From the NCBI RefSeq assembly GCF_009914755.1, contig NC_060942.1: DNA of 64,000 nt, one strand, 5' to 3'. Positions 21,417-47,241 of this stretch are shown here, in pieces. The notes under the pieces were generated by a model. The model searched no databases. It was not told the origin of the DNA and worked only from the letters and a program-made list of their open reading frames with translations. Numbering within the stretch: the stretch's first letter is position 1; each line of letters opens with the position of its first letter. The translations under genes and the position numbers were made by a program. The DNA is from the human T2T-CHM13v2.0 reference genome, Homo sapiens.

Positions 21417-21550
21417 ATGAATGATTCTAGGCAGCAGTCTCTGTTCTTCATCACACTTCCAGATTTAAACAAACTCTGTGCTGTCAGAATAATACTGAGT
21501 AATAAGGTGGCAGATACTGAGATTAGGACTATACAAATGAAGATGTGCAG
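21417..21550 (+). CDS. C18orf63: C18orf63 exon 2 coding part (exon starts 21385): [44 protein letters not shown]
   Basis: Acceptor TTTTTAAAG|, ATG with A at -3, donor CAG|GTAAAA; 134 nt, phase 2. Confidence 0.92.
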
Positions 21551-22059
21551 GTAAAAAAATACATCTTATAACTAAGACTTTTAAAACTTTGAGACCTATA
21601 AAAGCTGTTTTAGAGGAATTTTCTATAAAGCAAAATACTCATTCACTCAACTTGTGTTTATAATTTTAAAATAAAGGAAGTCAGATTTTGTTTTGACCAG
21701 GTATATTGGATTATATTTAAGGAGGGATTTAAAATACTTGCAATAGAATTATCTCACTGTTGAGTTTTTATATCTGTGACCTCTTATGTGCTTTTTAAAA
21801 GTTTAAAATCTCCACAGACATTCATGAATTAAATTCAGGCTCCCAGAAACTTAGAGGTCCTAATTAATCAATATTTATGGAATACCTACTGTTTTCCAGT
21901 AGGTATTTCCAGTAGGTGGGGCACTTAGAGATCCTATAAACATCTTAGATTAGTATAGTTTCTTAATTCTCAAGTCAGTATGAGACACTGTGGAGTATTT
22001 CTCTAGGATCTGTCTCAAAATATCTGATCCCACATAGTCGTTGAAAAACAGCTTAAGAG

Positions 22060-22360
22060 GGCCGGGCGTGGTGGCTCACACCTGTAATTCCAGTGCTTTG
22101 GGAGGCCAAGGTGGGCGGATCACGAGGTCAGGAGTTCGACACCAGCCTGGCCAACATGGTGAAACCCCATCTCTACTAAAAATAAAACAAATTAGCTGGG
22201 CATGGTGGCAGGCACCTGTAATCCCAGCTACTCAGGAGGCTGAGACAGGAGAATCGTTTGAACCTGGGAGGTAGAGGTTGCAGTGAGCCAAGACTGTGCC
22301 ACTGCACTCTAGCCTGGGCAACAGAGCGAGACTCTGTCTCAAAAAAAAAAAAAAAGGAAA
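22060..22360 (+). mobile_element. AluS (Sg-like)
   Basis: Full Alu with A tail; TSD ~GAAAAACAGCTTAAGAG / GAAAAGCAGCTTAGAG. Confidence 0.95.
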
Positions 22361-23658
22361 GAAAAGCAGCTTAGAGGAAACCTAAAGTATAATTCCATGA
22401 TTACTGAGGACCCTCCTTTAAATTGTTTGAGGCACTCAAAGGAAGAGTCATAGAAAACATGAGAAGATTCTATATTTAAATGAATTGCTTAGAGAAGAAC
22501 AAACAACTAGAAGATACCCAGAGGCAAGAAATAAGGAAGCCACTTTTGGGGTGTCCTTCATTTTCGTCTTATTTACAAAGTTTTTCTTCTCTCCATTGCA
22601 TATTTTCCCACCCAGGGGCATCAGGGAGCCTGTACCCTTCCTGCTAAAGTATAATATGATACCTGTTAAGGACTTAATCTGTGACTCCTTTTGGAAATAC
22701 TAAAATAGGTAGAAAACCTAAAGTGAGGTTTTTCTTCTGCTTGTCCTCAAATTGAAGGCAGCCATTCCCACAGAGTGGGGTTATCTTCACTCACCCTCCC
22801 GGTAATTGACAGAGAGTCTTGAATAGCATTTGGCTCTCTCTAGTAGCATTTGGCTGTGTCAGGTAATGGCAGGCCTTGCCAAGGCAAGTACCTGATATAC
22901 CTTGGTTCCAACAAATATGAAGCCACCAGAAACAGATTGGCCCGTGTTGCTTTTTAAGGTAACCCCATACACATCCTAATGGTTATTTTAATTTGTTTCT
23001 TTGATGATTAGTAATGTTGAAGGTTTTCAGATTTCCAGTTGTATTCTTTTTGTGTTTTTCCTATCTTTCCCTTGAACCTTGAAGTGAAATTATTAATGGT
23101 AATTTGATTCTGATGATGTTTGTTTTAAGTTCATTTGGCTGTTGAAACCACTACCCAGTTCTTTCTGGCTTGGGAAGAATTTCCTTTCTGAAGGAAAAGG
23201 ATTTAGTCAGTAGTTCTAAATGTTTAAGTGGTTGGTAACTTCACTGATAGGTGAATCCTTAGACTCTTGCCTCTGGTGCCCCCTGCCCACCACCTTTTTT
23301 TTTATTTTAAAGGAAAAATGGAAGAAATAGGAGTTAAAGGAGACAGATTCTTCACTGTGTGTAGATTTCTTCAAGTATATAGGACAAAAATTGAGTTCTA
23401 AAAGATGAATTTAGGTTCACAGATGAAAGAGATTGGGAAATTCAGATGCGGGGACAAGTTCTCAAGTTAGCATTAGTATCTAAAACTTCCTAATTCTCTT
23501 AAGTCAAATATTGCCTGAGTACCTACACCTACACTGTTCAAGGTGCTATGCAAAGTGTGGGGAGAGAGTCTCTAACACAATTGTTGCCTAGGAGAAACTT
23601 AACGTTTTAGCTAAGCAAAGGTTTAAAATGTTCCAATAGAGTAAAAACGGATAGTGAG

Positions 23659-24032
23659 TGTATTAGTCTGTTTTCACACTGCTGTAAAGAATTACCTAAG
23701 ACTGGATAATTTATGAAGAAAAGAGGTTTAATTGACTCACAGTTCCGCAAGCTTAACAGGAAGCATGATTGGAGGCCTCAGGAAACTTAAAATCATGTCA
23801 GAAGGGTGAAGGGGAAGTAAGCACCTTCTTCTAATGGCAGCAAGAGAGAGAGGTGGGGGGAGGAAGTGCTACACACTTTTAAACAAGATCTAATGGGAAC
23901 TCACTATCACTAGAGCAACAGGGGGGAAATCCGCCGCCATGAGCCAATCACTTCCCACCAGGTCCCTTGCCAACACTGGGGATTATAATTCAACATGAGA
24001 TTTGGGTGGGGACACAGAACCAAACCATACCA
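23659..24032 (-). mobile_element. MaLR LTR (MSTA/THE1D-like), 31 nt upstream of exon 3
   Basis: TGTATTAGTCTGTTTTCACACTGCTG...GAGATTTGGGTGGGGACACAGAACCAAACCATACCA. Confidence 0.9.
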
Positions 24033-24063
24033 GTCCACTTTGTAATATATTTCATCTCCACAG

Positions 24064-24142
24064 GCAATTGCTGTTTTTGCATCAAGATATTCTTACATCA
24101 CCTGTGTCTGGAATATTAAACCAAATCTGGGTGGTGATGGCG
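24064..24142 (+). CDS. C18orf63: C18orf63 exon 3: (R)[26 protein letters not shown]
   Basis: CTCCACAG| ... GCG|GTTAGT; 79 nt, restores phase 0. Confidence 0.92.
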
Positions 24143-44941: not shown

Positions 44942-45240
44942 AGGGGTGAGGTGGCTCACATCTGTAATCCCAGCACTTTGGGAGGCCAAGGCAGGCAGTC
45001 ACCTGAGGCCAGGATTGAGACCAGCCTGGCCAACATGGCAAAACCCTGTCTCTACTAAAAATACAAAAATTAGCTGAGCATAGTGGTGCACGCTTGTAAT
45101 CCCAGCTGGCGGCTAAGGCAGGAGAATCGCTTGAACGATGGCTTGAACCCGGGAAGCAGAGGTTGCCATGAGCTGAGATCGCACCACTGCCCTCCAGCCT
45201 GGGCAACAGAGCGAGACACTGTCTCAAAAAATAAATAATA
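44942..45240 (+). mobile_element. AluS
   Basis: Dimeric Alu with small indels; TSD core CACTAAGA. Confidence 0.9.
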
Positions 45241-45570
45241 GCACTAAGAGTACATTTTAAGTGGTCTACCACAAAAAAAAAAAGTATGTGAGTAAATGCA
45301 TGTTAATTAGCTCGACTTAGCAATCCACAATGTATACATATTTTGAAATATGTCATACATGATAAATAATATATACTATTTTTATTTGTCAATTAAAGCA
45401 AAATAAAAAGATTTAGTACAACGTGTTTGAAACTTGAGATGTTTAGTTTACTATATATAGCTAGTGAGATAGTTGTTGAATCTTTTTTGAACACTTTCTA
45501 AATCATGTAGTTGACTTATTAAACTATATTTAAGCATTGGCTCATAATAGCTTCCTCTCATTTTTCATAG

Positions 45571-45667
45571 TATGAAAATGGGACAAATTATAAATATTTT
45601 TCATGCCATCCCCGCTGCCTGTCCTTTTCACTCATATGGAGATTTCCAGAGACACTGGGATGCCCTG
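45571..45667 (+). CDS. C18orf63: C18orf63 exon 9: (S)[32 protein letters not shown]
   Basis: TTTTTCATAG| ... CTG|GTAAGG; 97 nt. Confidence 0.92.
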
Positions 45668-45779
45668 GTAAGGAATGGAAATATATGTTACATTAGAAGT
45701 TATTTGATTTTTGTTTATTGTAACTTAACCTAAGTTTAGCTTTCTCCAAGATATTTAAAATTTTGTGCTTAATTTTTAG

Positions 45780-45865
45780 TATGGCTATAAACTTCCAGGT
45801 GATTGTGGAAAAATTAAAATATACTGCAACATCTATTTCAAAATGCTCGGAGAAAGGACCTTCAC
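45780..45865 (+). CDS. C18orf63: C18orf63 exon 10: [28 protein letters not shown]
   Basis: AATTTTTAG| acceptor; ends at the U12-type donor |ATATCCTTT; 86 nt, phase 2. Confidence 0.9.
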
Positions 45866-47057
45866 ATATCCTTTACACACCAACTGAAGCAGATGCTGTC
45901 TGCCCACCTTATAATCTAGTTTTGCTCCCACTCTCATGTCATACTTTTCAACCTTCTTTCTCTGTGTCTAACTGAAACTATGGTACATTTCCTCCTACTT
46001 CTTATCTGCACAAGTGTTTCTGGTTTGCTTAGAATATCTTCCTATTTTTATTTGAGGATGAGCTCAATAAGGATATTTTCCTTAAACACCATTTCAATAA
46101 CTTAGAAAAGTTAGAAAAAAATGTGTACTTAGAAAGTAAGAAAGCAATCATGATTCTCCTTAGCCAAGTGCTCCCTCCAGTGGCATTTCAGATACAATTG
46201 AAAGGGTTGAATTAAAAGCTTAGGTTGTAAACAAAAACAAGATTTTTCTTTTGAGGAGATTATCTAATTTTATAGGCAAATTTTCGATGATTTGACTTAT
46301 ACTTAATTGCACCCCATTGACTTAAGAAAATATCTTTTAAACAATATTTTTTAAAATCGAAATATACACACGAGAAGAGCATAAGTGCTCAGGTGAAACT
46401 CTTAAATCTTAGTACTGATTTCACCATTTCCATCTTCTGACCTGCTGGAGTTTAAAAATGGAAGAAGGAAGAGCCTCAGTGATGTCTTTTTGCATTCTTT
46501 GTTTCCTAAGCCAAACTTATTTTAATAGTAAAACTGAGGTTAACATACATCAGTTATTTTATTTCATTAGATGCCAACATGTTATTCAAAATCTACAGAA
46601 TATGTTTCATCAGAAAAAGTAACTGCTTTCTCAAAGAACTGCTTTTGCAGCTTGAATACAATCTATATGTGTTGTTTCTCTGTCCTGAATTTCTAACTGT
46701 TTTTGGAGGTGCAACCTGTTCATTGTTTATTATAATACTTATTTTGTAATTGCTAAGGCTTATAGTATCTTCCTTATAAATCGTTTTTGGAATATCACAG
46801 TTGCCTTTCCATTTAGAAAGCCATATAGTAAGATATTATGAATTGTCTTGATTTGGAATGTTAGAATAGAAGGAATGAAGATCCCTGTGAGAAAACATAC
46901 TTTCATCTGTGGATGGTATCAGATAAGCAATATAAAAGAGTTAAGATATATTTATGTGTGCCTTTTTAACATTGCTACTTTACTACTTTTTAAAATCCCT
47001 TATAAATTTCTGCCTCTTATGTAATAAAATCAGACATTGTTCTTTAACATTGTTCAG
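45866..47057 (+). other. U12-type (minor spliceosome) intron with AT-AG termini
   Basis: 5'SS ATATCCTTTA; branch site TTCTTTAAC at 47040-47048, 9 nt before the end of ...TTCAG. Frame continuity requires this join. Confidence 0.85.
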
Positions 47058-47241
47058 ATATCCTCTCAGTTGCATCAGAAGTCAGCCCATGCAGTTCTTT
47101 CCAAGGGTAGATTCGGAAGTTGTGTTGAAAAGTTTTCTTTCAGATTTAAAATCTAAACTGCCCCATATATGTGGATTTCCCATAAAGATGACAAGTAAAC
47201 CATGCTACTACACACAAGAACTAACTAAACCTAATATACAG
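47058..47241 (+). CDS. C18orf63: C18orf63 exon 11: (T)[61 protein letters not shown]
   Basis: 184 nt, donor CAG|GTAAGA; lies within ORF 46954..47301. Confidence 0.92.

What the first reader, a model, noticed from the sequence alone, without database searches (positions are those of the whole stretch)
21417..47241. C18orf63 N-terminal ~300 aa looks like a stand-alone Argonaute/PIWI N-L1-PAZ lobe with no MID-PIWI ('half-Argonaute')
Seen: the spliced exons 2-11 give an ordered domain that matches recalled human AGO2 segments colinearly by eye. N domain: [18 protein letters not shown] ~ NFFEMDIPKIDIYHYELDI; helix [17 protein letters not shown] ~ [31 protein letters not shown] ~ PVFDGRKNLYTAMPLP. 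L1: [30 protein letters not shown] ~ [54 protein letters not shown] ~ [47 protein letters not shown] ~ [37 protein letters not shown] ~ [40 protein letters not shown] ~ [29 protein letters not shown] is replaced by a ~360-aa low-complexity basic tail. Established: PAZ binds small-RNA 3' ends, and this region is annotated only as DUF4708. Inference: a non-slicing nucleic-acid 3'-end binder, or a trans-acting partner of a PIWI-type lobe, plausibly in germ cells. Identity is low, and I cannot check whether structure databases already note this.
Basis: partly seen in the sequence, partly recalled or inferred. Interest (0 to 1): 0.9.

Follow-up and report, generated by a model that had tools for sequence, protein, structure and literature searches.

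The report
Meiotic half-Argonaute encoded by C18orf63
C18orf63, an uncharacterised gene switched on as germ cells enter meiosis, encodes the front half of an Argonaute protein (including the PAZ domain that normally grips RNA ends) but no cutting half, which gives this orphan gene its first testable function.

The parts
19000..20200 (+). CpG-island promoter around the annotated start (19390), with three TTTCCCGC sites at 19129(+), 19260(-) and 19344(-)
   Evidence: GC 0.51-0.71 and CpG obs/exp 0.56-0.80, against 0.21 for the whole window. Reading the sites as E2F/E2F6-type is from memory.
21417..21550 (+). Coding exon, aa 1-45: N domain (strands 8-13 and 20-26, start of helix 33-50)
   Evidence: (DUF4708 positions 1-38, E 2.1e-13)
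24064..24142 (+). Coding exon, aa 45-71: N domain (strands 54-58 and 65-71)
   Evidence: In one search, ferredoxin-like domains match only model residues ~16-107.
26249..26305 (+). Coding exon, aa 72-90: end of the N domain (helices 72-76 and 81-86)
31498..31609 (+). Coding exon, aa 91-127: L1 (helix 99-114, strands 118-121 and 124-127), holding the family-invariant W118 and N119
   Evidence: E 6.2e-15; W118 and N119 in 75 of 75
32546..32587 (+). Coding exon, aa 128-141: L1
34415..34491 (+). Coding exon, aa 142-167: L1 beta-hairpin (137-147 and 151-162) and the junction to PAZ
42263..42372 (+). Coding exon, aa 168-204: PAZ-like domain, two N-terminal helices and the first strand (near-invariant L202, P203, S204)
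45571..45667 (+). Coding exon, aa 204-236: PAZ-like strand 206-214 and helix 226-237, with Y226, H232 and the invariant W233
   Evidence: W233 in 75 of 75, Y226 in 69, H232 in 60
45780..45865 (+). Coding exon, aa 237-265: PAZ-like Y237-G238-Y239, L241-P242, and the hairpin 251-255 / 263-267
45866..47057 (+). Intron 9, which looks like a U12-type AT-AG intron (starts ATATCCTTT; TTCTTTAAC lies 9 nt before the 3' AG)
   Evidence: The U12 consensus is from memory.
47058..47241 (+). Coding exon, aa 265-326: end of PAZ (Y266, P267, C270), L2-like helix 284-298 and strand 314-316
   Evidence: (alignments reach model residues 314-319)
56784..57806 (+). Coding exon, aa 327-667: disordered basic linker. 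It contains the conserved short motif K434-F-V-P-V-F-K440 at 57105-57125.
   Evidence: no Pfam family; pLDDT below 50; motif in 43 of 75 members; 2.2% of shuffled tails
57995..58051 (+). Last coding part, aa 668-685 plus stop. It ends at the KPKK patch that precedes the SAP motif in non-mammalian orthologs; the SAP itself is absent.

Best explanation
C18orf63 encodes a 'half-Argonaute'. Its DUF4708 domain (aa ~6-320) is a complete Argonaute-type N-terminal lobe: N ~6-96, L1 ~97-161, PAZ ~162-280 and the first part of L2 ~281-320. There is no MID and no PIWI domain, so it cannot anchor a guide's 5' end and cannot slice. A ~360-aa basic disordered linker with one conserved short motif follows. 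In most non-mammalian bilaterians the protein ends in a SAP-type helix-extension-helix DNA-binding motif, which mammals have lost. Shown here: the fold, the missing C-lobe, the domain order, the breadth of the family and its single-copy state. Taken from papers: expression at meiotic entry. Inferred: the protein is a non-catalytic nuclear adaptor of early meiotic germ cells. In this reading the basic linker (plus SAP where present) holds it on DNA or chromatin. The PAZ-like domain, which carries the family's most conserved aromatic residues on the helix and hairpin that form the 3'-end pocket in canonical PAZ, captures a single-stranded nucleic-acid 3' end. My odds: the fold homology is real, about 0.9; the PAZ-like domain binds nucleic acid, about 0.4.

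For: Conservation, out of 75 sequences: W233 75, Y266 73, P267 73, C270 73, Y237 72, Y239 69, Y226 69, H232 60.

DNA tether. The SAP motif is in 121 of 319 stored proteins. Pfam HeH, Ish1 and SAP hits appear. Ku70 SAP aligns 51 of 54 residues at 2.3 A.

Biology. The gene is oocyte-enriched and listed beside SPO11 and REC114. It is a preleptotene marker and belongs to a meiosis expression component.
Confidence: 0.5

Rival explanations
1. MED13-like protein scaffold. The N-lobe is a protein-binding platform. Its PAZ-like cleft holds a peptide, either from a partner or from the protein's own linker (for example the conserved K-F-V-P-V-F-K motif). Nucleic acid is not a ligand of the lobe.
For: MED13 is the best structural match by about 2-3 Z units over the best Argonaute. 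MED13's PAZ binds its own L2-N segment and its insertions bind Med12, with no nucleic-acid density. Like MED13, this protein has a long disordered region right after the N-lobe. The linker carries a motif conserved in 43 of 75 members, against 2.2% of shuffled tails.
Confidence: 0.33
2. Trans-complementing half. The lobe pairs with a separately encoded MID-PIWI lobe, or with a PIWI protein, to rebuild a bilobed Argonaute, as the split prokaryotic systems do.
Against: No animal protein with only MID-PIWI is known to me (memory), and none was searched for here. Animal PIWI proteins already have their own N-lobes (for example MILI 226-563). Those prokaryotic subunits align only ~160-190 residues against ~250-265 for long Argonautes, consistent with their lacking a PAZ that this protein has. 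There is no genomic linkage to any such gene in the window.
Confidence: 0.06
3. The resemblance is not homology. It could be an over-confident model or a convergent arrangement of common sub-folds (a ferredoxin-like N domain plus a small beta-barrel).
Confidence: 0.05

Closest known systems
MED13 / Med13 (Argonaute-like subunit of the Mediator CDK8 kinase module), N-terminal lobe
   Different: MED13 keeps MID and PIWI and forms a bilobed, self-blocked channel, with its disordered region between PAZ and L2. C18orf63 has no C-lobe, its disordered region follows the L2-like piece, and it ancestrally ends in SAP. The human protein hits only DUF4708 at E<=10. MED13 is described as widely present among eukaryotes, whereas papers describe this gene as testis-, oocyte- and meiosis-specific.
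PIWI- and AGO-clade Argonautes (MILI, SIWI, MIWI, AGO2) and long prokaryotic Argonautes, N-lobe only
   Different: There is no MID and no PIWI, so no 5'-end pocket, no seed display and no slicer. There is no detectable sequence similarity. Pocket residues are unverified.
Separately encoded N-lobe subunits of split prokaryotic Argonautes (SiAgo Aga1, AfAgo-N, and the APAZ subunits of SPARTA, SPARDA and SPARHA)
   Different: They align only ~160-190 residues, consistent with lacking a PAZ (that they lack one is from memory). They work with a neighbouring short Argonaute gene. They are prokaryotic defence components, not animal germline genes.
Dicer PAZ and stand-alone PAZ domains
   Different: There are no helicase or RNase III modules, and here the PAZ is embedded in an Argonaute-type N/L1/L2 frame.
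Ku70 C-terminal SAP domain (as an architectural analogy)
   Different: The rest of the protein is unrelated, and the SAP is absent from the human protein.

Membership tests
Pfam DUF4708 (PF15813) | Match to the family profile above its gathering score | tested here: met
   P0002 aa 7-280 matches profile positions 1-274 at E 3.6e-148, 492.6 bits, against a cut-off of 27. All 75 aligned relatives match.
Argonaute/PIWI superfamily (bilobed Argonaute proper) | N-terminal lobe with N, L1, PAZ and L2 in that order | tested here: met
Argonaute/PIWI superfamily (bilobed Argonaute proper) | MID domain with a 5'-end binding pocket | tested here: not met
   Everything after aa ~330 is predicted disordered. 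The tail exon has no Pfam family at E<=1. The family profile finds no real PDB sequence match. Structural alignments with few gaps end at model residues ~314-319.
Argonaute/PIWI superfamily (bilobed Argonaute proper) | PIWI (RNase H-like) domain with or without the catalytic tetrad | tested here: not met
   Same evidence as for MID. No Piwi family is listed for the human protein at E<=10.
PAZ domain | PAZ fold: a small barrel with two N-terminal helices and a helix/beta-hairpin appendage, lying between L1 and L2 | tested here: met
PAZ domain | Sequence match to Pfam PAZ (PF02170) | tested here: not met
   The human protein hits only DUF4708 at E<=10. PAZ is not among the 25 of 36 families listed for the 75 relatives. 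Language-model features give PAZ clusters at 0.88, which is a lead only.
PAZ domain | Conserved aromatic or basic pocket that holds a nucleic-acid 3' end | not testable with these tools
   Model coordinates and residue-level superpositions are not returned. Near-invariant aromatics (Y226, W233, Y237, Y239, Y266) sit on the helix and hairpin, but their equivalence to pocket residues is unverified.
MED13 family | Argonaute-like N-lobe closest in structure to MED13 | tested here: met
MED13 family | MID plus PIWI module, and a disordered region inserted between PAZ and L2 | tested here: not met
   No C-lobe. The disordered part follows the L2-like helix rather than separating PAZ from L2.
MED13 family | Sequence match to Med13 families | tested here: not met
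   The human protein hits only DUF4708 at E<=10.
Split prokaryotic Argonaute N-lobe (APAZ-type) proteins | Stand-alone N-L1-L2 protein without PAZ, working with a MID-PIWI partner | tested here: not met
SAP / HeH DNA-binding motif | C-terminal helix-extension-helix motif | tested here: not met
   It is absent from the human protein and from 0 of 120 proteins of the mammalian search. There is no relic in the window (best E 1.3) or in the genome (strict first look). It is present in 121 of the other 199 stored proteins, with Pfam HeH in 19, Ish1 in 18 and SAP in 4 of 75, and with fold matches to Ku70 SAP and the Rho N-terminus.

The most novel reading that the evidence does not exclude
DUF4708 proteins are a fourth, previously unrecognised eukaryotic branch of the Argonaute superfamily, beside AGO, PIWI and MED13. 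They would be an ancient bilaterian, meiosis-specific half-Argonaute that needs no guide. It would be tethered to chromatin by a basic linker and (ancestrally) a Ku70-like SAP motif. Its PAZ pocket would capture free 3' ends on meiotic chromosomes, either of small or nascent RNAs or of single-stranded DNA at replication or recombination intermediates. The conserved linker motif would gate that pocket, as MED13's L2 gates its own.
Probability: 0.15. Interest if true: 0.92.

Novelty: new variant of a known kind. Interest (0 to 1): 0.8.

Why it matters
A 2022 exome study lists C18orf63 among genes highly specific to a meiosis-enriched testis expression component that are 'yet to be characterized in mammalian spermatogenesis'. 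It is single-copy in human and conserved from insects and molluscs to mammals. Recognising its domain as an Argonaute N-lobe with a PAZ turns a DUF into a concrete hypothesis with obvious experiments: 3'-end binding assays, pocket mutants, CLIP, chromosome-spread localisation and a mouse knockout. It would also widen the eukaryotic Argonaute superfamily with an architecture (N-L1-PAZ-L2 alone, plus SAP) so far matched structurally here only by split prokaryotic systems. It raises the question of how it relates to MED13, whose own nucleic-acid role is unresolved. It is also a candidate gene for unexplained spermatogenic failure or ovarian insufficiency.

Tried and rejected
1. Sequence routes to a known family led nowhere. 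phmmer of the protein gave 0 hits and a 75-sequence profile gave 1 hit (huntingtin polyQ on the tail, E 1.4) against PDB sequences. Pfam at E<=10 showed only DUF4708 for the human protein.

2. Folding human residues 163-283 alone was not done. A natural partial ortholog (P0233) was folded by id instead. It stays open whether the human PAZ-like part scores the same on its own.

3. Foldseek with that PAZ-plus-SAP model gave 0 hits at E<=1e-3. I do not count it as support, only as a list enriched in PAZ chains.

4. The complex prediction was never run. It would have tested whether the linker motif (aa 415-460) docks on the N-lobe (aa 1-325). All nine hand-ins were answered 'queue full' or were not sent on.

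5. A search for a relic SAP exon found nothing. The six-frame HMM scan of the window had a best E of 1.3 at 14375-14506, outside the gene's 3' part. A SAP-bearing ortholog searched against the whole genome matched only N-lobe exons; the tool warned that weak matches may be missed.

6. I considered a closer kinship to MED13 than to Argonautes. MED13 leads for the whole lobe but is tied for the PAZ alone, so I make no claim about ancestry.

7. Prior-art searches:
- 'DUF4708': 0 papers.
- 'C18orf63' plus 'Argonaute': 0 papers.
- 'C18orf63': 37 papers, 36 listed, none about fold or function by title.
- 'Gm17266': 1 paper, unrelated by title.
- 'PAZ domain' plus 'SAP domain': 1 unrelated review.
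- PF15813 / IPR031643 / a UniProt accession recalled from memory: 6 papers, none on fold or function by title; four of them are proteomics studies also in the C18orf63 listing.

8. Earlier findings of this scan were not open to the session.
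Full report
THE OBSERVATION. Joining the 12 annotated coding parts of C18orf63 gives a 2058-nt frame, 685 aa plus a stop. The product is letter-for-letter identical to a database protein, P0002, recovered with one exon as the query. 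Seven exon translations match Pfam DUF4708 at colinear profile positions. The 341-aa tail exon matches nothing. The whole protein matches DUF4708 at E 3.6e-148 and no other family at E<=10. The tail is rich in K+R and S+P+T.

SEQUENCE METHODS. phmmer of the protein against all PDB chain sequences returns nothing at E<=10. A profile of 75 relatives returns only a polyQ artefact on the tail. No PAZ, ArgoN, ArgoL1, Piwi or Med13 family appears among the 25 of 36 families listed for those 75 relatives at E<=10.

THE FOLD. A HMMER scan of 1.84 billion cluster representatives found 397 relatives at E<=1e-3, down to about 26% identity. With 75 of them as the alignment, AlphaFold2 without templates gives 294 residues at pLDDT >=90. 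These are essentially aa 10-320. Everything after ~330 is disordered.
- Foldseek against PDB gives 118 hits at E<=1e-3. Of the 45 rows listed, 41 are named Argonaute or PIWI chains, 2 are MED13 of the CDK8 kinase module and 2 have generic titles. The best is human MED13 at 5.6e-8.
- TtAgo entries fall into two classes, ~165 aligned at 4-5 A and ~250 aligned at 6-8 A. That is what a mobile PAZ would produce.

IS THE MIDDLE PART A PAZ? I could not fold human aa 163-283 alone. Instead I folded stored protein P0233 by id. It is a natural partial gene model whose residues 45-322 align to human 168-441, so it has no N or L1. Its PAZ-like region still folds at pLDDT ~95-98.
- Foldseek alone is not significant: 0 hits at E<=1e-3, best 0.074. 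Its weak list mixes Argonaute, DCL3, DCL4 and isolated PAZ chains with tandem-Tudor barrels.
- In the second look, 44 of 50 rows are PAZ regions. They include Hiwi1 PAZ (92 of 108), Hili PAZ (86 of 107), MIWI PAZ (99 of 120), hAGO2 PAZ (94 of 120) and hAGO1 PAZ (95 of 120). Plain barrels align only ~50-65 residues.
- Language-model features of aa 163-283 give PAZ clusters (best 0.88; all ten best share the family). Features of aa 1-162 give ArgoL1/ArgoN clusters (0.84, 0.83). Both are below the tool's 0.9 line, so they are leads only.

WHAT IS MISSING AND WHAT IS ADDED. There is no MID or PIWI. The lobe is followed by a basic disordered linker that holds one conserved short motif, human K434-F-V-P-V-F-K440. 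The motif is in 43 of 75 relatives, against 2.2% of shuffled tails. Many relatives end in a SAP-type motif:
- 37 of 75 by pattern;
- 121 of 319 stored proteins by my HMM;
- Pfam HeH in 19, Ish1 in 18 and SAP in 4 of 75;
- fold matches to Ku70 SAP (51 of 54 residues, 2.3 A) and to the Rho N-terminus.

None of the 120 proteins of the mammalian search has the SAP motif. The nine SAP-less rows around human form one clade with support 99/95, in 100% of 200 bootstrap trees. The window and the genome show no relic (the latter with a strict first look). The human protein stops at the KPKK patch that precedes SAP elsewhere.

DISTRIBUTION AND BIOLOGY. Named relatives include mammals, a turtle, cichlids, hemichordates, echinoderms, many molluscs, annelids, insects of several orders and a barnacle. 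In the human genome all seven DUF4708 matches are exons of this one gene. From passages I read:
- the gene is oocyte-enriched in chicken and human, in a table beside SPO11, REC114 and SYCP1;
- it is listed in a peri-meiotic fetal-ovary analysis;
- it is named a marker that is up in preleptotene spermatocytes and down in leptotene-zygotene;
- it is described as testis-restricted;
- it is highly specific to a meiosis-enriched testis component and 'yet to be characterized';
- its promoter is hypermethylated in azoospermic testis.

MECHANISM. Shown: an Argonaute N-lobe with no C-lobe, plus a disordered basic linker and an ancestral SAP. Without MID and PIWI it cannot hold a guide's 5' end or cut. 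The best-conserved residues lie in L1 (W118 and N119, 75 of 75) and on the PAZ helix and hairpin: W233 in 75, Y266, P267 and C270 in 73, Y237 in 72, Y226 and Y239 in 69, H232 in 60. I infer a non-catalytic nuclear adaptor of early meiotic cells. The linker and SAP would bind DNA, and the PAZ-like domain would bind a 3' end or a peptide. I put nucleic-acid binding by the lobe at about 0.4 and a MED13-like protein-scaffold role at about 0.33. The reason for the caution is that in MED13, the closest structure, the PAZ contacts its own L2 and partner subunits and no nucleic acid is seen. A 2025 analysis also finds MED13's nucleic-acid interface diverged (passages read).

NOVELTY. None of my six library searches found a paper that links this gene or family to Argonaute, PAZ or MED13. 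Automated structure classifications may already label the domains; I could not check them. Stand-alone N-lobe proteins appear among the matches only from split prokaryotic Argonaute systems, and those align about 80 fewer residues. I rate this a new variant of a known kind.

Noticed in passing
window 45866-47057 (intron 9): The intron starts ATATCCTTT and has TTCTTTAAC 9 nt before its 3' AG. The donor is AT, not GT, while every other internal intron is GT-AG. This looks like a rare U12-type AT-AG intron (the consensus is from memory).
   Followed up: partly
window 57105-57125 (aa 434-440, in exon 56784-57806): The disordered linker holds a conserved short linear motif, basic-hydrophobic-V/I-P-I/V/T-F-basic (human K-F-V-P-V-F-K). 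It is present beyond residue 320 in 43 of 75 family members, against 2.2% of shuffled tails. Its partner is unknown. The test for docking on the N-lobe could not be run.
   Followed up: partly
window 57995-58051 (last coding part) and downstream to 64000: The human protein ends at the KPKK patch which, in fish, hemichordates, echinoderms, molluscs and insects, is followed by a SAP/HeH motif. The motif is in 0 of 120 proteins of the mammalian search. No relic was found in the window or the genome. The nine SAP-less rows form one clade (support 99/95).
   Followed up: yes
window 19000-20200: There is a CpG island at the annotated start (CpG obs/exp 0.56-0.80 against 0.21 for the window). Three TTTCCCGC sites lie at 19129(+), 19260(-) and 19344(-), within ~260 bp upstream of 19390. 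From memory, such E2F/E2F6-type sites mark methylation-silenced germline genes. Papers report this promoter as differentially methylated.
   Followed up: partly
window 31579-31584 (aa W118-N119, exon 31498-31609): The only invariant residues outside the PAZ-like part are W118 and N119, in an A-P-x-W-N-K-x-G stretch of L1 (75 of 75 sequences). I know of no described Argonaute L1 motif like it.
   Followed up: no
whole genome of the window (C18:74545435-74569881): All 7 DUF4708 matches in the 3.1-Gb genome are exons of this gene. No paralog or processed copy was found at this sensitivity.
   Followed up: yes
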